NCBI RefSeq assembly: GCF_003334385.1 | Contig: NZ_QOWN01000017.1 | Source: Escherichia coli | GTDB taxonomy: Bacteria > Pseudomonadota > Gammaproteobacteria > Enterobacterales > Enterobacteriaceae | Length of the DNA: 64,000 nucleotides | Strand: one strand, 5' to 3' | Part shown: one piece after another, positions 1,572-48,435 of the stretch | How the letters are laid out: each line of letters begins with the position of its first letter | Position numbering within the stretch: position 1 is the stretch's first letter | Program-made: the position numbers and the translations under genes | Notes under the pieces: model-generated | Seen by the model: the letters and a program-made list of their open reading frames with translations, nothing else | The model's database searches: none | What the model was told of the DNA's origin: nothing

Positions 1572-3386
1572 CTACTCTCCCTGTTTGCTGGCGGACGGCA
1601 GTTTGGCCGCTTTATTGACGTCATACCACCAGGTATCGATACCGAGGCTATAGATGGGGCGCACGGCCGGCTGGGAGAATTTATCCCACCAGGCGAGACG
1701 GTCTTCCGCCATGTACCACATTGGCAGCATGTAATAATTCCACGTTAATACGCGATCCAGTGCTCGCCCCAACGGCAGTAATTTTTCTTTATTTCCCTGC
1801 GCGGCAATAATTTGGTTGATCAGCGAGTCGATAACCGGGCTTTGCACGCCGGGGGCATTATAAGTGGAATTGATATATTCCGATGACCAGGAAATCTGTA
1901 AATCGGAACTGGGTCACGGCATCGCCCGCCATACGCGTGGCATCATGTCATAGTCGCGACTGCGCATGCGGTTAGTGATTTGCGAGTTATCCACCTTGCG
2001 AATGTCCATGTTGATACCTAGCCGTTGCAGGCTGTGCTGGAACGGCAATACCCACTGACTATTGCTGCTTGCGGGAAGCAATAATTCAAAGCTGAGTGGC
2101 TGACCCGTTGTGGCATTAACGCGTTGCTGACCCTTCAGCACCCAGCCCGCTTCGTTGAGAAGTTTGTCGGCTTTTAACAGGTTGTCACGATCGTAGCCAT
2201 CGCCTTTGGATACCGGCGGCTGGTAGATTTGTGTGAAGACTTCTGACGGTAGATCTTTTTTCATTGGTGCCAGAAGCACCAGCTCCGCGGCGTCGGGGTA
2301 ATTTCTGGCCGCGTATTCGGTATTCTGAAAATAACTGTTCGTGCGACTCCAGGCATTGTAAAACAACGCCTTGTTCATCCATTCAAAGTCAAAGGCGAGA
2401 GTGATAGCTTCCCGGACCCGGCGATCGCTGAATACCGGACGTTGGATATTAAACGCCAGCCAACGCGTATCTTGGGCTGATTCGTTCTTTTGCTCATCTT
2501 TGATGATGTATTTTTTATCGAAATTTTTACCGGTATAACGCGTGGCCCAGTTTTTGGCGTCGTTTTCCATACGCAAATCAAAGGCACCTGCTTTAAACGC
2601 TTCAAAGGCGACATTATCATCGAGGTAATAATCGTAGCGAATGGTGTCGAAATTCCAGCGTCCACGGTTTACCGGTAAGTTTGCTGCCCAGTAATCTTTC
2701 ACACGGGAATAGACAATATTTTGCCCCATTTTCCAGGACGTAACGCGGTACGGACCACTGGCAAGCGGAGGCGTGGCGAGCGGGTCGCTAAGTTTGTGAT
2801 CCTTCCAGTACTTTTCTGGAAATACCGGCAGCGAAAACAGACTCAGCATATCTTCTTTGCCGGGTTTAGCTAACTCAATGCGCACGGTTAACGGTGCAAT
2901 GGCTTTGACGGTGGTGCCTTTGTAGACCAGACGAAATTGCGGCACGCCTTCGGTCATAAATTTTTGAAAAGTAAACTCTACATCGCGGGCAGTAATGGGC
3001 GAACCATCATGAAAACGGGCGCGCGGATTAATAGCGACCTCCACCCAGGAATAATCGTCAGCATAGCGTGCGCTTTCAGCAATCAGCGGGTAATAACTGC
3101 CTGGTTCGTCATCGGAAGTCGTAAATAGCGTGTCGTACAGCTGCTCGGTGCGTGCGCCCGGGTTGCCGCGCAGTGCATAGCGGTTGAAATTATCGAAGGT
3201 GCCGAGGGCTGACAACGTTATCTGCCCACCTTTTGGCGCGGCGGGGTTCACATAATCAAAATGGTTGAAATTAAACGCGTACCGGGGTTCGCCCAGCACG
3301 GCAAAGGCATAGCTTTCCTTGATAGCCTGCGCCTGCACACCAAAGGTGAACAGAGCGATAAACAGCAGCAGTATGCGCACAATCAT
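1572..3386 (-). pseudogene. yejA: periplasmic substrate-binding protein YejA interrupted by an in-frame TGA (stop at 1914-1916)
   Basis: Track ORFs 1914..3392 (492 aa) and 1572..1847 (91 aa) are in the same frame, separated only by TGA at 1914-1916; together with start at MIVRILLL (3386) they span 604 codons, the length I recall for intact YejA. Confidence 0.7.
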
Positions 3387-5204: not shown

Positions 5205-5771
5205 TTAGCTGCGGCTGAGAACCCGGCGTGCTTCGTTGTAACGCTTCTTCCAGTACGGTTCATTCATGCTGGAAATAATAACACCACTGCTGGTGGAAGC
5301 ATGGACAAACTGATTGTTGCCGATATAAATACCGACATGGCGTCCCGTTGAACCGGCACGGAACAGAACTAAATCACCCGTACGCAAATTACTGCGGGAA
5401 ACAGATTTACCCATTTCCTGCTGTTCGTAAGTCGAACGCGGAAGTTCTAAGCCAAATTGCTCACGGAATGTACGCTGTACGAAACCAGAACAATCGATAC
5501 CTTTTTTAGTGCTGCCGCCCAGACGATAACGTACGCCTTTCCAGTCAGCATACTGATCCATAATTCGCGATTTTACGTCGACATTACGAACCAGGTTTTC
5601 AAATTCATCCTGAGAAGCTTGCAGTGATGATGTTTCACTACCCACTGCACGTGTCTCAGGATGCATATTCTTTGCGGTGTTATTTGCACTACATGCAGAA
5701 AGCAGAACCGCTACTGCAATCGCGGGAATCCCGCGCAAGATATATCTCAAAATCGGTTGAGATTTGACCAT
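5205..5771 (-). CDS. mepS: peptidoglycan DD-endopeptidase/LD-carboxypeptidase MepS (Spr), NlpC/P60 lipoprotein
   Basis: 188 aa ORF with lipoprotein signal (LLSACS) and NlpC/P60 Cys-His motif region; synteny. Confidence 0.9.
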
Positions 5772-16453: not shown

Positions 16454-17395
16454 ATGCGCGAAAAGGATTATGTCGTAATTATAGGTTCGGCGAATATTGA
16501 TGTCGCCGGATATTCACATGAATCATTAAATTATGCGGATTCAAATCCAGGTAAAATAAAATTTACGCCTGGTGGAGTAGGGCGCAATATTGCACAAAAC
16601 CTGGCGTTGCTGGGTAACAAAGCCTGGCTACTGAGCGCCGTAGGCAGTGATTTTTATGGTCAATCGCTGCTAACGCAAACCAATCAATCTGGCGTTTATG
16701 TCGATAAATGCCTGATTGTGCCGGGAGAAAATACGTCGAGTTATTTATCATTACTCGATAATACCGGTGAAATGCTGGTTGCTATAAATGACATGAATAT
16801 TAGCAACGCTATTACAGCTGAATATCTCGCACAGCACGGTGAATTTATTCAGAGGGCAAAGGTCATTGTCGCGGACTGTAATATCAGTGAAGAGGCACTG
16901 GCATGGATTCTGGATAATGCCGCCAACGTACCCGTATTTGTCGATCCGGTTTCGGCATGGAAATGTGTCAAAGTGCGCGACCGTCTAAATCAGATCCACA
17001 CTCTCAAGCCAAACCGCCTTGAAGCGGAAACCCTGAGTGGGATTGCGCTGTCAGGGCGTGAAGATGTGGCAAAAGTTGCTGCCTGGTTCCATCAACATGG
17101 CCTGAACCGACTGGTATTGAGCATGGGCGGCGACGGCGTTTATTACAGCGATATCAGCGGTGAAAGTGGCTGGTCTGCGCCGATCAAAACCAATGTTATT
17201 AATGTTACCGGAGCGGGCGATGCCATGATGGCGGGACTTGCTTCGTGTTGGGTAGACGGAATGCCGTTTGCCGAATCTGTTCGTTTCGCACAGGGATGTT
17301 CGTCAATGGCGCTCTCCTGTGAATACACCAATAACCCCGATTTATCGATTGCCAACGTTATATCGTTAGTGGAGAACGCAGAATGTCTGAATTAA
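16454..17395 (+). CDS. psuK: pseudouridine kinase PsuK (PfkB family)
   Basis: 313 aa ORF, ribokinase/PfkB fold motifs (GAGDAMMAG); synteny with psuG, psuT. Confidence 0.85.
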   Translation: MREKDYVVIIGSANIDVAGYSHESLNYADSNPGKIKFTPGGVGRNIAQNLALLGNKAWLLSAVGSDFYGQSLLTQTNQSGVYVDKCLIVPGENTSSYLSLLDNTGEMLVAINDMNISNAITAEYLAQHGEFIQRAKVIVADCNISEEALAWILDNAANVPVFVDPVSAWKCVKVRDRLNQIHTLKPNRLEAETLSGIALSGREDVAKVAAWFHQHGLNRLVLSMGGDGVYYSDISGESGWSAPIKTNVINVTGAGDAMMAGLASCWVDGMPFAESVRFAQGCSSMALSCEYTNNPDLSIANVISLVENAECLN

Positions 17396-45169: not shown

Positions 45170-45371
45170 TTAATTCGTAAAACGTGCTACCGATCACATT
45201 AAGAAATCAGCGCTTATTTTTTCGCTCCCCGGCATTACGCAATGCGCAGCGAACTCAGGCATACATCAAGCATAGAGAGGGATTGCAGTTTGCAGCAATC
45301 CCTCTTTGCAGACCTTTAATCCGCTGACCATAGGCGCTAACATAGCGCCTCATTTTTTTGCGGGTGATGAT

Positions 45372-46319
45372 ATGCGTGTGTTACTGGCACCGATGGAGGG
45401 AGTGCTTGACTCTCTGGTGCGTGAATTGCTGACCGAAGTTAACGACTACGATCTGTGCATCACCGAGTTTGTCCGCGTGGTGGATCAACTGCTGCCGGTA
45501 AAAGTCTTTCATCGCATTTGCCCTGAGCTACAAAACGCCAGCCGGACACCATCTGGTACGCTGGTGCGCGTGCAGTTGTTAGGTCAGTTCCCACAATGGC
45601 TGGCAGAGAACGCCGCCCGTGCGGTGGAGTTAGGTTCCTGGGGCGTGGATCTCAATTGCGGCTGCCCGTCGAAAACGGTTAACGGTAGCGGCGGCGGGGC
45701 GACGTTACTCAAAGATCCTGAACTCATCTACCAGGGTGCAAAAGCGATGCGTGAAGCTGTACCGGCGCATTTGCCCGTCAGCGTGAAAGTGCGTCTGGGC
45801 TGGGACAGCGGTGAGAAGAAATTTGAAATCGCCGATGCGGTTCAACAGGCTGGCGCTACGGAGCTGGTGGTGCATGGGCGGACGAAAGAGCAGGGTTACC
45901 GCGCGGAGCATATTGACTGGCAGGCGATTGGCGATATTCGCCAGCGGCTGAATATTCCGGTGATTGCCAACGGTGAAATCTGGGACTGGCAGAGCGCGCA
46001 ACAATGCATGGCGATCAGCGGTTGCGACGCAGTGATGATTGGTCGCGGGGCGCTCAATATTCCCAACCTGAGCCGGGTGGTAAAATATAACGAACCGCGA
46101 ATGCCGTGGCCGGAGGTGGTTGCTTTGCTGCAAAAATATACCCGTCTGGAAAAGCAGGGCGATACCGGGTTATATCACGTTGCGCGGATTAAACAGTGGT
46201 TGAGTTATTTGCGTAAAGAATACGATGAAGCAACGGAATTATTTCAGCATGTTCGGGTGTTGAATAATTCCCCTGATATTGCAAGGGCTATTCAGGCAAT
46301 TGATATCGAGAAACTCTAA
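45372..46319 (+). CDS. dusC: tRNA-dihydrouridine synthase C DusC
   Basis: Track ORF 45306..46319; conserved protein begins [11 protein letters not shown] (45372), 315 aa. Confidence 0.8.
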
Positions 46320-46360
46320 AAAACCATAGTGATGTTTTTTGACAATGTGTTAGCTCTTTA

Positions 46361-46625
46361 TCAATAGGCCGCACGGTTGTTTGGTGGCGTCAAAATTGCC
46401 GAGGCGTTCCCTGAAGGCCGGGGCAGCCCACATGGATGTGGGCTGAGGGCGCGTTTTACAGGGATGTTACCTCGCGCCCGACCCGGTAGCCGTAAGGGAT
46501 AAGTCGAGGGCACCGCGCAGCGGCGATTTTGTTCGCCAGAGCCCGGGGGTGCAGGGGGCGGCGGCGATTGGCCGCCCCCTGCGCGCTCCTTGCGCCAGTG
46601 ATTATATGAAGCAATGCACATGACA
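46361..46625. other. GC-rich, hairpin-dense intergenic element of unknown nature (possible structured RNA or repeat)
   Basis: About 265 bp of markedly higher GC than flanking AT-rich intergenic DNA; contains perfect inverted repeats gcagggggcggc/gccgccccctgc, gcccacat/atgtgggc, gggcgcg/cgcgccc; the 86 aa ORF called here is low-complexity and likely spurious. Confidence 0.35.
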
Positions 46626-46691
46626 GGAGCGCAACAGGATGAGAGACTGAAATATTCTCGTTATTTTCGGACCTGATGACATTAATTAATT

Positions 46692-46775
46692 TTAAAATAT
46701 CATCTTAAATACGCCAGTCACCACCAGTAGCCCAATCAGGAAAATAATCAATACAGCCCAGAGTATAATTTTCAT
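46692..46775 (-). CDS. yohP: small hydrophobic membrane protein YohP (27 aa)
   Basis: Minus-strand ORF MKIILWAVLIIFLIGLLVVTGVFKMIF; not in ORF track because under 60 aa. Confidence 0.6.
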   Translation of the reverse strand: MKIILWAVLIIFLIGLLVVTGVFKMIF

Positions 46776-46998
46776 TGGCGTTCCTTTATTTGTGAGTGCT
46801 GAATAAGTATAGGAAAAAACGAAGCCCTTTGCCGTTATCCATAAACGATTAAGATAAATCGGAAGATATCATTCACTTAGTGTATATTTTTCTGGATATG
46901 TCGTTTTATTGCCACTGATGTATTGCCACGCGAAACTAAAAAATATATCGCAACACACGGTAATCTCCGCGCACCTTTTCTTACCTGATTATTCCCCC

Positions 46999-48435
46999 AT
47001 GAATCGTGATTCCTTTTATCCAGCCATCGCCTGTTTTCCGCTGTTACTGATGCTGGCCGGGTGTGCGCCTATGCATGAAACCCGCCAGGCGTTAAGCCAG
47101 CAAACGCCCGCTGCACAAGTTGACACCGCATTACCCACGGCGCTGAAAAATGGTTGGCCAGACAGCCAATGGTGGCTGGAGTATCACGATAATCAACTCA
47201 CTTCCTTAATTAACAATGCACTACAGAACGCACCGGATATGCAGGTGGCTGAACAGCGCATTCAGCTAGCTGAAGCCCAGGCGAAGGCAGTTGCCACTCA
47301 GGATGGTCCGCAGATCGACTTTTCGGCGGATATGGAGCGGCAAAAAATGTCGGCAGAAGGCTTAATGGGGCCGTTTGCTCTGAACGATCCGGCCGCAGGT
47401 ACGACCGGCCCGTGGTACACCAACGGTACTTTTGGCTTAACGGCGGGCTGGCATCTCGATATCTGGGGAAAGAATCGGGCGGAGGTTACTGCCCGCCTGG
47501 GTACGGTTAAAGCACGGGCGGCGGAACGCGAGCAAACCCGCCAATTGCTGGCTGGCAGCGTAGCCCGCCTGTACTGGGAGTGGCAAACCCAGGCGGCGTT
47601 AAACACGGTCTTGCAGCAAATAGAAAAAGAGCAGAACACCATTATCGCGACCGATCGCCAGCTATATCAGAACGGGATTACTTCTTCAGTTGAAGGTGTG
47701 GAAACCGATATTAATGCCAGCAAAACCCGGCAGCAGCTCAACGATGTCGCGGGGAAAATGAAAATTATTGAGGCACGGTTAAGCGCACTTACAAATAACC
47801 AGACAAAGTCATTGAAGCTTAAACCGGTCGCGTTGCCGAAAGTGGCAAGCCAGCTTCCTGATGAACTGGGGTACTCCTTACTGGCCCGGCGGGCAGATTT
47901 GCAGGCGGCGCACTGGTACGTTGAGTCATCGCTAAGCACCATTGATGCGGCAAAAGCGGCATTTTATCCTGACATCAACCTGATGGCCTTCCTGCAACAG
48001 GATGCGTTGCACTTAAGCGATCTGTTCCGTCATTCCGCGCAGCAAATGGGCGTTACGGCAGGCCTGACGCTACCCATTTTCGATAGTGGTCGTCTTAACG
48101 CCAATCTCGATATCGCAAAAGCCGAAAGCAACTTGTCTATCGCCAGCTACAACAAAGCGGTGGTTGAAGCGGTGAATGACGTGGCGCGGGCAGCCAGTCA
48201 GGTTCAGACACTGGCGGAGAAAAACCAGCATCAGGCGCAAATTGAGCGCGATGCCTTGCGTGTGGTAGGTCTTGCGCAGGCGCGCTTTAACGCGGGCATC
48301 ATTGCTGGTTCCCGCGTCAGCGAAGCCAGAATCCCCGCGCTGCGTGAGCGGGCCAATGGCCTGTTATTGCAAGGGCAGTGGCTGGATGCCTCCATTCAAC
48401 TCACTGGTGCGTTGGGCGGGGGTTACAAACGCTGA
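46999..48435 (+). CDS. mdtQ: outer membrane efflux lipoprotein (OMF/NodT family) MdtQ, apparently intact
   Basis: Track ORF 46909..48435 uninterrupted; lipoprotein signal with lipobox LLMLAGC from MNRDSFYPA (46999), 478 aa; OMF-type coiled-coil/beta-barrel repeats. Confidence 0.75.
   Translation: MNRDSFYPAIACFPLLLMLAGCAPMHETRQALSQQTPAAQVDTALPTALKNGWPDSQWWLEYHDNQLTSLINNALQNAPDMQVAEQRIQLAEAQAKAVATQDGPQIDFSADMERQKMSAEGLMGPFALNDPAAGTTGPWYTNGTFGLTAGWHLDIWGKNRAEVTARLGTVKARAAEREQTRQLLAGSVARLYWEWQTQAALNTVLQQIEKEQNTIIATDRQLYQNGITSSVEGVETDINASKTRQQLNDVAGKMKIIEARLSALTNNQTKSLKLKPVALPKVASQLPDELGYSLLARRADLQAAHWYVESSLSTIDAAKAAFYPDINLMAFLQQDALHLSDLFRHSAQQMGVTAGLTLPIFDSGRLNANLDIAKAESNLSIASYNKAVVEAVNDVARAASQVQTLAEKNQHQAQIERDALRVVGLAQARFNAGIIAGSRVSEARIPALRERANGLLLQGQWLDASIQLTGALGGGYKR

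What the first reader, a model, noticed from the sequence alone, without database searches (positions are those of the whole stretch)
46361..46625. GC-rich, hairpin-dense island between dusC and yohP
About 265 bp with GC content well above the flanking AT-rich intergenic sequence, containing several perfect inverted repeats (gcagggggcggc...gccgccccctgc; gcccacat..atgtgggc; gggcgcg...cgcgccc). It does not match REP, ERIC or BIME motifs as I recall them, and the only ORF is low-complexity (poly-Pro/Gly/Ala). Could be a structured non-coding RNA, a remnant of an inserted element, or a strain-specific repeat.
Basis: seen in the sequence. Interest (0 to 1): 0.5.

Follow-up and report, generated by a model that had tools for sequence, protein, structure and literature searches.

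The report
Known TRIP1c / RRS-dusC replication-stalling repeat
The GC-rich island after dusC is real, but it is a published E. coli repeat (TRIP1c, later named RRS-dusC) whose folded G-rich strand stalls DNA polymerase and leaves gaps behind the replication fork, so this is a re-discovery.

Summary
It is not new. It is TRIP1c of Rudd (1999), which was re-described in 2023-2026 as the "Replication Risk Sequence" RRS-dusC. The published G-quadruplex motif GGGGGTGCAGGGGGCGGCGG is present exactly at 46545-46564 (+). The copy is 100% identical to K-12 strain J53. All 5426 complete E. coli genomes carry relatives, with a median of 3 places per genome. The published mechanism is that the G-rich strand, when it is the lagging-strand template, folds and blocks DNA polymerases. 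This leaves ssDNA gaps of up to 2 kb. The physiological role as a topological relief valve is still a hypothesis. My analysis adds four things. Full-length homologues occur in seven Enterobacteriaceae genera besides Escherichia. Covariation is strong: 30 of 53 pairs show compensatory changes. Two hairpin loops are nearly invariant and match the CsrA SELEX consensus and the TwoAYGGAY motif, though below Rfam threshold. Orientation is polymorphic in natural strains, and O157:H7 strains carry both RRS inverted. There is also a diverged subfamily at yegH-asmA and proX. The DNA-obstacle model does not explain the invariant loops. Novelty: already known. Interest: low to moderate.

The parts
46363..46638 (+). 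Whole repeat element: TRIP1c, which is the same as RRS-dusC. The sense (G-rich) strand is the window + strand.
   Evidence: The covariance model R1 matches 46375-46638 at 266 bits. TRIP1c is described as 273 bp lying 43-44 bp downstream of the yohI/dusC stop (PMC10888264), and the dusC stop is at 46319.
46545..46564 (+). Published G-quadruplex-forming motif of the RRS, GGGGGTGCAGGGGGCGGCGG.
   Evidence: There is one exact match in the window, with 0 expected by chance. The motif and its polymerase-blocking activity are reported in PMC11194060.
46391..46531 (+). Outer long-range helices that close the 5' domain. Helix 1 pairs 46391-46398 with 46524-46531. Helix 2 pairs 46399-46405 with 46503-46509. 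Helix 3 pairs 46408-46412 with 46495-46499. Helix 4 pairs 46419-46422 with 46482-46485.
   Evidence: The consensus fold and pair counts are. Helices 1-4 are 86-99% paired, and 11 of their 22 pairs show compensatory changes.
46424..46445 (+). Hairpin 1, with stem CAGCCCAC/GTGGGCTG and loop ATGGAT (ACAUGGAUGU).
   Evidence: Five of the 7 pairs show compensatory changes, for example CCCAC/GTGGG changing to GCGC/GCGC or GGCGC/GCGCC. The loop C-A-x-G-G-A-x-G is invariant in 31 sequences. It is one of only 3 ACANGGATGT matches in 64 kb, against 0.39 expected.
46447..46479 (+). Hairpin 2, with basal stem GGGCGCG/CGCGCCC and apical ACAGGGATGT. The apical sequence matches the CsrA SELEX consensus RUACARGGAUGU at 11 of 12 positions.
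   Evidence: The inverted repeat is I11. The apical A-U pair changes to G-C in 7 sequences. The consensus is taken from the review PMC7652899.
46551..46582 (+). G/C-rich hairpin GCAGGGGGCGGC...GCCGCCCCCTGC, which overlaps the G4 motif.
   Evidence: The arms are perfect 12-nt repeats. Helices 10 and 11 are 95-100% paired, and 5 of their 7 pairs are compensatory across genera.
46584..46631 (+). 3' terminal hairpin CGCTCCT...AGGAGCG, followed by the conserved AAC.
   Evidence: Helix 12 is 97.7% paired and 4 of its 7 pairs are compensatory: GCGCUCC/GGAGCGC in Escherichia and Klebsiella becomes CGUUCAC/GUGAACG in Enterobacter and Leclercia.

Best explanation
This is TRIP1c, which is the same element as RRS-dusC. 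It is one of the two near-identical GC-rich repeats of E. coli K-12. The other is TRIP1a/RRS-lysO between aqpZ and lysO. The two lie about 650 kb on either side of dif. The element acts at the DNA level. When the fork unwinds the region, the G-rich sense strand (here the window + strand, which is the lagging-strand template) folds into a very stable structure. That structure comprises the multi-helix hairpin domain plus a G-quadruplex-capable run at 46545-46564. It blocks DNA polymerase, so the lagging strand is left with a post-replication gap of up to about 2 kb that loads SSB and RecA. What is shown, by others in K-12: polymerase blockage in vitro, RRS-dependent ssDNA/RecA peaks, loss of the peaks on inversion, conditional essentiality of at least one RRS, and altered supercoiling. 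What is shown here: the identity of the element, the exact G4 motif, its strand relative to replication, and strong evolutionary selection for the folded single strand. What is only hypothesised: that the gaps serve as 'topological relief valves' or as Ter-macrodomain boundaries.
For: Identity. The copy is 100% identical over 301 nt to K-12 J53 and has no annotation there, and MG1655 has no feature at this place either. It is 95.7% identical to the K-12 aqpZ-lysO copy. K-12-type genomes have 3 places, as TRIP1 requires. The location, length and GC content match the published TRIP1c (PMC10888264). The published RRS G4 motif is present exactly once in the window (PMC11194060).

Strand. The window is the reverse complement of MG1655 coordinates. 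The sense strand is the MG1655 - strand at 2,229,119-2,229,383, on the replichore that is replicated towards lower coordinates. Window GC skew is positive on + in 6 of 8 bins. Both results put the G-rich strand on the lagging-strand template, as published.

Structure. 96.6% of cells are paired, against 84.5% in shuffles and 38-46% when partners are slid. 30 of 53 pairs carry compensatory changes, against 6-11 when slid. The covariation score is 0.359 against at most 0.080. G-U pairs outnumber A-C mismatches on the sense strand: 12 pairs (20 cells) against 3 pairs (6 cells).

Function. The experimental evidence is in PMC10287960, PMC11194060 and bioRxiv 10.64898/2026.06.16.732529.
Against: 1. 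Orientation is not fixed in nature. Only 3316 of 5426 genomes have the K-12 arrangement at dusC-yohP. ST131 and O157:H7 carry the copy on the other strand. 896 genomes carry the aqpZ-lysO copy inverted. O157:H7 strains show both copies inverted and have only 2 places per genome. Engineered K-12 strains with this arrangement showed no gap peaks and altered supercoiling. The 2026 preprint reports weaker gap formation in the reverse orientation, which softens this point.
2. Loop sequences (CAUGGAUG, ACAGGGAUGU, GGGAUAAG) are nearly invariant across genera while the stems covary. A pure structural obstacle does not need that.
3. There is no canonical four-run G3 quadruplex motif in any E. coli copy. 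Only two-tetrad (G2) potential is present, and the G-run is kept paired to a covarying C-rich arm.
4. Copy number (1 to 10) and location vary widely. In other strains the same intergenic slots hold REP/BIME instead.
Confidence: 0.85

Rival explanations
1. The element is, or is also, transcribed into a structured RNA related to the TwoAYGGAY motif. Its two GGA hairpin loops bind a CsrA dimer, so the RNA acts as a small CsrA decoy or as a CsrA-recruiting module in neighbouring transcripts.
For: The only Rfam similarity is to TwoAYGGAY (RF01731, in the Csr/Rsm clan CL00106). It scores 29.7-33.1 bits in E. coli copies, and both hairpins and the closing stem align. Hairpin 2 carries UACAGGGAUGU and hairpin 1 carries ACAUGGAUGU. 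The SELEX consensus is RUACARGGAUGU, with GGA in a hairpin loop. The two GGA are 28 nt apart, which lies within the 10-63 nt bridging range of a CsrA dimer. Two of the three ACANGGATGT matches in 64 kb lie here, against 0.39 expected. The loops are invariant while the stems covary. TwoAYGGAY has been proposed to bind CsrA (PMC4333381). The Psychromonas TwoAYGGAY copies have the same junction architecture and are also multicopy. G-U exceeds A-C on the sense strand.
Against: The Rfam score is below the gathering threshold of 43 bits, and Klebsiella copies give no hit at E<=1. No sigma-70-like promoter or intrinsic terminator was found in or next to the element. Its orientation relative to flanking genes is arbitrary: three loci are sense and three antisense in tandem gene contexts, and it is polymorphic within a locus. 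The supplementary gene table of the E. coli CsrA study lists dusC and ybjE/lysO as 'No' in all four yes/no columns, and no element coordinates turn up in the supplementary files. Only about 1.2% of paired cells are G-U, which is low for an RNA. The stems are far longer than the 4 bp or fewer typical of SELEX ligands.
Confidence: 0.12
2. The element is primarily a selfish or neutral intergenic repeat of the REP/ERIC kind. It spreads and is exchanged between strains, and its effect on replication is a by-product of a very stable fold rather than a selected function.
For: Copy number varies from 1 to 10 per E. coli genome and reaches 13 in a K. pneumoniae chromosome. Copies sit almost always downstream of genes, in convergent or tandem intergenic regions. 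Both orientations occur at the same three loci: dusC-yohP, aqpZ-lysO and yegH-asmA. Their junction sequences are not homologous, which implies independent insertion or cassette replacement rather than clean inversion. The same slots hold REP/BIME or other repeats in other strains. Tandem and head-to-head pairs occur in other genera. A truncated copy exists at yegH-asmA in a K-12-sized laboratory-derived strain, and a partial copy, TRIP1b, is reported in K-12.
Against: I found no terminal inverted repeats, no target-site duplication and no clean empty site. No associated transposase and no phage or genuine plasmid carriage was seen. Every complete E. coli genome keeps at least one copy. Loops and all 12 helices are conserved across genera, which a neutral repeat would not maintain. 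[quoted passage not shown]
Confidence: 0.2
3. The element encodes the 86-aa low-complexity protein on the - strand (46361-46621) or one of the shorter ORFs.
For: The ORFs exist.
Against: Single-nucleotide indels separate E. coli from Klebsiella and Enterobacter copies, and substitutions are compensatory for base pairing rather than synonymous. The composition is simply that of GC-rich hairpin DNA.
Confidence: 0.01

Closest known systems
TRIP1 repeats of E. coli K-12 (Rudd 1999, Res Microbiol 150:653; Li et al. 2024, PMC10888264), specifically TRIP1c
   Same: The locus is the same, 43-44 bp after the yohI/dusC stop. Length (~270 bp) and GC content (62-65%) agree. The copy is ~94-96% identical to the aqpZ-lysO copy. 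K-12 has three copies. Further copies lie at alx-sstT (TRIP1d). Orientation varies between strains.
   Different: Nothing differs for this copy. The TRIP1 papers do not report the homologues in other genera, the covariation, the CsrA/TwoAYGGAY-like loops, or the diverged subfamily I found at yegH-asmA and proX-MFS (75-85% identity).
Replication Risk Sequence RRS-dusC (Pham et al. 2023 PMC10287960; Pham et al. 2024 PMC11194060; Kusi-Appauh et al. 2026 bioRxiv 10.64898/2026.06.16.732529)
   Same: It is the same element. The G4 motif matches exactly, the element is adjacent to dusC, and the G-rich strand is on the lagging-strand template.
   Different: The papers describe position and sequence as highly conserved in enterobacteria. 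In 5426 E. coli genomes the dusC copy has the K-12 arrangement in only 61%, and O157:H7 strains show both copies inverted. Across genera the conserved features are the hairpin pairs and the loop sequences. A canonical G4 is not conserved.
TwoAYGGAY RNA motif (Rfam RF01731; Weinberg et al. 2010, PMC2864571)
   Same: Both have a closing P1 stem, then two adjacent hairpins whose tips read ACAUGGAUGU and ACAGGGAYGU. The family is multicopy in Psychromonas ingrahamii. It has been proposed to bind CsrA.
   Different: The score is 29.7-33.1 bits against a gathering score of 43. The E. coli element is about 100 nt longer, with an extra G/C hairpin and a 3' hairpin. No E. coli, Klebsiella or Enterobacter accession appears in the stored part of the original alignment. 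The second loop is AGGGAU, not AYGGAY.
REP/BIME and ERIC intergenic repeats
   Same: All are extragenic and lie downstream of genes. Their presence and orientation vary between strains. They occupy the same intergenic slots and form stable hairpins.
   Different: There is no sequence similarity. The element is much longer and forms a multi-helix fold rather than a single palindrome. It has far fewer copies. No associated RAYT-type transposase is known.
Neisseria gonorrhoeae pilE G4
   Same: It is a G-quadruplex-forming DNA element proposed to cause a replication-associated gap or nick (cited as the one other bacterial example in PMC11194060).
   Different: Its sequence is unrelated. It is a single G4 that serves antigenic variation. 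It is not a 270-bp hairpin domain.

Membership tests
TRIP1 (TRIP1c) | Lies 43-44 bp downstream of the yohI (dusC) stop codon, between dusC and yohG/mdtQ | tested here: met
   The dusC stop is at 46317-46319. The conserved block starts at about 46363-46368. mdtQ begins at 46999.
TRIP1 (TRIP1c) | About 273 bp long, with 62-65% G+C | tested here: met
   The CM match 46375-46638 has GC 0.64. The whole block is about 276 bp.
TRIP1 (TRIP1c) | About 94% identical to TRIP1a at aqpZ-lysO, with three copies in K-12 | tested here: met
   It is 95.7% identical over 256 nt to MG1655 915,021-915,284. J53 has 3 places.
RRS (Replication Risk Sequence) | Contains the G4-forming sequence 5'-GGGGGTGCAGGGGGCGGCGG-3' on the sense strand | tested here: met
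   There is an exact match at 46545-46564 (+).
RRS (Replication Risk Sequence) | The G-rich strand is the lagging-strand template | tested here: met
   The sense strand is the MG1655 - strand at 2.229 Mb. Window + strand GC skew is positive in 6 of 8 bins. The positions of oriC and dif are from general knowledge.
RRS (Replication Risk Sequence) | Triggers lagging-strand ssDNA gaps and RecA/SSB loading, and blocks polymerases | not testable with these tools
   This is experimental, reported for this very locus in K-12 (PMC10287960 and PMC11194060).
RRS (Replication Risk Sequence) | About 650 kb from dif, paired with an inverted copy on the other replichore | not testable with these tools
   The window holds only one copy. 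MG1655 coordinates (915 kb and 2,229 kb) are consistent with the published symmetry.
TwoAYGGAY RNA (RF01731) | Reaches the Rfam gathering score (43 bits) | tested here: not met
   The window scores 29.7 bits and other E. coli copies 29.9-33.1 bits. Klebsiella copies give no hit at E<=1.
TwoAYGGAY RNA (RF01731) | Two adjacent hairpins with AYGGAY in the terminal loops, enclosed by a P1 stem | tested here: inconclusive
   Loop 1 (AUGGAU) fits. Loop 2 is AGGGAU in most copies and AUGGAU in three (Entbac110, Lec126, Easb21). A long closing stem is present.
CsrB/CsrC-type CsrA-sequestering sRNA | Many GGA motifs in hairpin loops, its own promoter and terminator, and CsrA binding in vivo | tested here: not met
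   Only two loop GGA motifs plus 2-3 others are present. No promoter or terminator was found. No CLIP evidence was found in the Potts 2017 supplement. Binding itself is not testable here.
REP/BIME (naRNA4 model) and ERIC | Sequence and structure match to the REP palindrome | tested here: not met
   Rfam finds naRNA4/REP elsewhere (L004 251-328, 59.3 bits) but not in the element.

The most novel reading that the evidence does not exclude
The DNA-obstacle model does not account for the invariant loop sequences. The RRS/TRIP1 core is an enterobacterial relative of the TwoAYGGAY motif, and its two hairpin tips are near-perfect CsrA high-affinity sites spaced for one dimer. The most novel reading still open is that a sequence-specific factor reads these loops. 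That factor could be CsrA acting on a transcript, or an unknown protein acting on the folded lagging-strand template. Under this reading RRS function, and perhaps the TwoAYGGAY class as a whole, couples a folded nucleic-acid module to a trans-acting binder instead of relying on a G-quadruplex alone.
Probability: 0.15. Interest if true: 0.6.

Novelty: already known. Interest (0 to 1): 0.25.

Why it matters
As a scan hit it does not matter. The element was catalogued in 1999 and has been studied experimentally since 2023. For people working on RRS, three observations bear on the published model.

1. About 39% of complete E. coli genomes carry the dusC copy in the non-K-12 arrangement, which was the opposite orientation in both lineages I examined. 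O157:H7 strains show both copies inverted, the arrangement that abolished gap peaks in engineered K-12.
2. What evolution conserves across genera is the hairpin pairing (30 compensatory pairs) and the loop sequences. A canonical G4 is not conserved.
3. The loops match the CsrA/TwoAYGGAY consensus, which gives a testable alternative or additional mode of action.

Tried and rejected
- **Rfam, all 4227 families.** There was nothing at threshold, only sub-threshold TwoAYGGAY plus chance-level AgvB, miRNA and snoRNA hits.
- **Promoter and terminator scan of 46100-46950.** No site lies in or next to the element.
- **Phage collection.** No match.
- **Plasmid collection.** All 34 matching records are typed non-mobilizable. 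The largest are Mb-sized chromosomes filed as plasmids, so no mobilizable-plasmid carriage was seen.
- **Genome contigs pattern scan.** The Clostridia, Bacteroidales and other non-enterobacterial hits I inspected have no hairpin and no TwoAYGGAY match, so I treated the non-enterobacterial hits as chance.
- **Sigma-54 reading of TGGCGTCAAAATTGC.** Rejected, because those positions covary as a helix and are not conserved in Enterobacter.
- **Protein-coding reading.** Rejected on indels.
- **Search for a clean empty site, target-site duplication or terminal inverted repeats.** None was found. Slots without the element hold other repeats.
- **Simple inversion as the cause of the orientation polymorphism.** Rejected for dusC-yohP and aqpZ-lysO, because the junction sequences differ. 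At yegH-asmA the inverted form is bracketed by inverted REPs.
- **Local GC-skew test.** I asked whether the sense strand lies on the lagging-strand template across 37 copies. The result was inconclusive, with about half of the copies each way on short flanks.
- **Literal sequence search in papers.** No hits.
- **CsrA CLIP-seq supplement.** No signal at dusC or lysO.

Full report
**1. The observation.** The island is real. In 100-nt windows GC is 0.58-0.73 from about 46350 to 46649, while both flanks are at 0.31-0.40. The region folds far better than shuffled sequence on either strand (z = -4.4 and -5.3). It lies between dusC (45306-46319, +) and yohP (46692-46775, -). The 86-aa low-complexity ORF on the minus strand exists, but it is an artefact of composition.

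**2. It is a repeat family.** Megablast of the element finds all 5426 complete E. coli genomes, with a median of 3 places per genome and up to 8. PGAP annotates none of the 30 listed matches. The copy in the window is 100% identical to K-12 J53, and MG1655 has no feature at this place. Other E. coli sites are:
- aqpZ-lysO
- alx-sstT
- yegH-asmA
- proX-MFS

A 'distant' search of the plasmid collection returned only non-mobilizable records. The largest are Mb-sized chromosomes filed as plasmids. It still showed copies in Klebsiella, with 13 places in one chromosome, and in Citrobacter. Phages gave nothing. A pattern scan of species-representative genomes, filtered by blastn and by my covariance model, gave full-length copies in E. 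albertii, Enterobacter, Leclercia, Atlantibacter, Pseudocitrobacter, Mangrovibacter and unnamed Enterobacteriaceae. The non-enterobacterial pattern hits I inspected were chance.

**3. A folded single strand is under selection.** I aligned 31 copies from eight genera over 281 columns and obtained a consensus of 12 helices with 53 pairs.

| Measure | Observed | Column shuffles | Partners slid 1-3 columns |
|---|---|---|---|
| Cells forming a standard pair | 96.6% | 84.5% | 38-46% |
| Pairs with changes on both sides | 30 | 18 | 6-11 |
| Covariation score | 0.359 | 0.140 | at most 0.080 |

Examples of compensatory change:
- Hairpin 1: CCCAC/GUGGG changes to GCGC/GCGC or GGCGC/GCGCC.
- 3' hairpin: GCGCUCC/GGAGCGC changes to CGUUCAC/GUGAACG.
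- Outer stem: UGGCG/CGCCA changes to CCGGC/GCCGG.

G-U pairs (12 pairs, 20 cells) outnumber A-C mismatches (3 pairs, 6 cells). The strand that folds is therefore the window + strand. The bias is modest, and it cannot separate RNA from single-stranded DNA. The hairpin tips CAUGGAUG and ACAGGGAUGU and the internal GGGAUAAG are nearly invariant.

**4. What it is called.** A literature search on the flanking genes aqpZ and ybjE found Li et al. 2024 (PMC10888264). The element is TRIP1c of Rudd (1999). It is described as 273 bp, 43-44 bp after the yohI (= dusC) stop, and 94% identical to TRIP1a at aqpZ-ybjE. TRIP1b is a partial copy after putP. TRIP1d (alx-sstT) and TRIP1e (copA-ybaP) occur in other strains. 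That paper already reports the orientation polymorphism: TRIP1c is 2952 forward and 2789 reverse, and TRIP1a is 3448 and 1255. It also reports a predicted 'double-Y' RNA fold and large inversions between copies.

[quoted passage not shown] - Pham et al. 2023 (PMC10287960)
- Pham et al. 2024 (PMC11194060)
- a 2026 preprint

Their G4 motif GGGGGTGCAGGGGGCGGCGG occurs exactly at 46545-46564 (+).

**5. Mechanism as published, and what I could check.** In K-12 the RRS give prominent RecA/SSB-ssDNA peaks on the lagging strand, and these disappear when the RRS is deleted. The G-rich strand blocks Pol I, II and IV in vitro at the G4 site. RRS placed elsewhere create new peaks. Inverted RRS give no peaks and change the supercoiling landscape. 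Both RRS can be removed only with a compensating amplification. Single-molecule work shows gaps nearly every time the G-rich strand is the lagging-strand template, and at lower frequency in the other orientation. The authors offer the 'topological relief valve' role as a hypothesis.

I could confirm identity, motif and strand. The window is the reverse complement of MG1655, so the sense strand is the MG1655 minus strand at 2.229 Mb, on the replichore copied towards lower coordinates. GC skew on the window + strand is positive in 6 of 8 bins. Both results put the G-rich strand on the lagging-strand template.

**6. Points that do not sit easily with the published picture.**

(a) Orientation. Only 3316 of 5426 genomes have the K-12 arrangement at dusC-yohP. 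In ST131 and in O157:H7 the copy is on the other strand. The junction sequences are not homologous, so this is not a clean flip. At aqpZ-lysO the K-12 copy is antisense to the genes and the O157 copy is sense, and 896 genomes carry the O157-type allele. The O157:H7 strains I examined show the aqpZ-lysO copy inverted (SS52 and others) and the dusC copy inverted (ECP19-198), with only two places per genome. So this clonal lineage appears to have both RRS inverted relative to K-12, though I did not check both loci in a single genome. The diverged copy at yegH-asmA also occurs both ways.

(b) The G4. No E. coli copy has four G3 runs. What is kept in 30 of 31 family members is two-tetrad potential on the sense strand. 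The G-run is paired to a covarying C-rich arm.

(c) The invariant loops are unexplained by a purely structural obstacle.

(d) In Atlantibacter, Leclercia and Pseudocitrobacter, copies occur as head-to-head pairs, and in K. pneumoniae as a tandem pair. A head-to-head pair would present a G-rich lagging-strand template whichever way the fork arrives. This last point is inference.

(e) A GC-skew test of orientation across 37 copies was inconclusive on short flanks.

**7. The RNA/CsrA lead.** The only Rfam similarity is to TwoAYGGAY (RF01731, Csr/Rsm clan). The score is 29.7 bits here and up to 33.1 bits in other E. coli copies, against a gathering score of 43. Both hairpins and the closing stem align. 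The original TwoAYGGAY alignment contains multicopy Psychromonas ingrahamii sequences with the same junction and with loops ACAUGGAUGU and ACAGGGACGU. No enterobacterial accession appears in the stored part of that alignment.

The CsrA SELEX consensus is RUACARGGAUGU, with the GGA in a hairpin loop, and one dimer bridges sites 10-63 nt apart (review PMC7652899). Hairpin 2 matches that consensus at 11 of 12 positions and hairpin 1 at 9 of 12. The two GGA are 28 nt apart. Two of the three ACANGGATGT matches in the whole window lie here, against 0.39 expected.

Several results count against a CsrA-binding transcript:
- I found no promoter or terminator.
- Orientation relative to neighbouring transcription is arbitrary.
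- G-U pairs are rare.
- The stems are much longer than those of SELEX ligands.
- The supplementary gene table of the E. coli CsrA study lists dusC and ybjE as 'No' in all four yes/no columns.

I keep this reading as a low-probability rival and as the most novel reading not excluded.

**8. Mobile-element reading.** Copies sit downstream of genes, vary in number, are sometimes truncated, and share slots with REP/BIME. I found no terminal repeats, no duplications, no clean empty site, no transposase and no phage or mobilizable-plasmid carriage. Every complete genome keeps at least one copy, and the fold and loops are conserved across genera. The published conditional essentiality also argues for function.

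**9. Verdict.** But the element is present in K-12 and is a named, experimentally studied family. Novelty is 'already known' and interest as a scan hit is low. The residual value lies in the cross-genus covariation, the invariant CsrA/TwoAYGGAY-like loops, the natural double-inverted strains and the diverged subfamily. Each of these suggests a direct experiment on the RRS.

Noticed in passing
window 46999-48435 (+): mdtQ is an intact 478-codon reading frame here (ATG at 46999, lipoprotein-like signal MNRDSFYPAIACFPLLLMLAGC). In K-12 J53 and MG1655 it is a 1436-nt frameshifted pseudogene. The window is therefore not from K-12 itself, even though the repeat and its near flanks (window 46100-46900) are 100% identical to J53.
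   Followed up: partly
window 17290-17299 (+): This is the third match in the window to the CsrA-consensus-like ACANGGATGT (ACAGGGATGT), outside the element. I did not examine its context.
   Followed up: no
window 46318-46340 (+): A weak A/T hairpin, AAAAAAC...GTTTTTT, lies right after the dusC stop. It may be a feeble dusC terminator and sits between the gene and the repeat. The terminator scan did not call it.
   Followed up: no
window 46609-46669 (-): A sub-threshold Rfam hit to AgvB (22.9 bits against a gathering score of 56) overlaps the 3' edge of the repeat. I judged it to be chance.
   Followed up: partly
L133 2507-2770, L134 2545-2808, L132 2501-2658, L135 2510-2772: A diverged subfamily ('type B', 75-85% identical to the window copy, with GUGAACGGAAC at the 3' end) lies at yegH-asmA in both orientations and is truncated in a K-12-sized laboratory-derived strain (L132). 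It also lies at proX-MFS in 544 genomes. The TRIP1 paper does not list it among TRIP1a-e.
   Followed up: partly
L100 2344-2604(-)/2716-2973(+); L101 12969-13230(-)/13341-13503(+); L125 5542-5804(-)/5917-6180(+); L033 1865-2129(-)/2171-2432(+); L006 2057-2319 and 2494-2756 (+): Copies occur as head-to-head pairs 40-115 nt apart in Atlantibacter, Leclercia and Pseudocitrobacter, and as a tandem pair in K. pneumoniae. A head-to-head pair would put a G-rich strand on the lagging-strand template for either fork direction.
   Followed up: no
L135 2460-2820 versus L136 and L137 (proX-MFS); L131 4547-4944 versus L002 (alx-sstT): The same intergenic slot, with identical boundaries, holds the repeat in some strains, one or two REP/BIME units in others, and a CCCTCTCCC-type repeat in K-12 at alx-sstT. 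These look like alternative 'cassettes' between conserved flanks.
   Followed up: partly
L134 2410-2910: In strain 17MR471 the inverted yegH-asmA copy is bracketed by two REP sequences in inverted orientation (GCCTGATGCGACGC...CAGGCCTAC). Recombination between REPs could be one route to the orientation flip.
   Followed up: no
L100 about 2290-2345 (-), downstream of the Atlantibacter copy: Three to four tandem GAACGGAAC motifs follow the 3' end of the Atlantibacter copies. They repeat the conserved 3'-terminal motif of the element. Their meaning is unknown.
   Followed up: no
L114 (MAG labelled Sporobacter termitidis) 2300-2514; L025 (MAG labelled Desulfacinum) 5226-5356; L032 (MAG labelled Proteobacteria): Contigs in non-enterobacterial metagenome bins carry Klebsiella- or E. 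coli-like copies at 83-94% identity. These are probably mis-binned or contaminating enterobacterial contigs.
   Followed up: no
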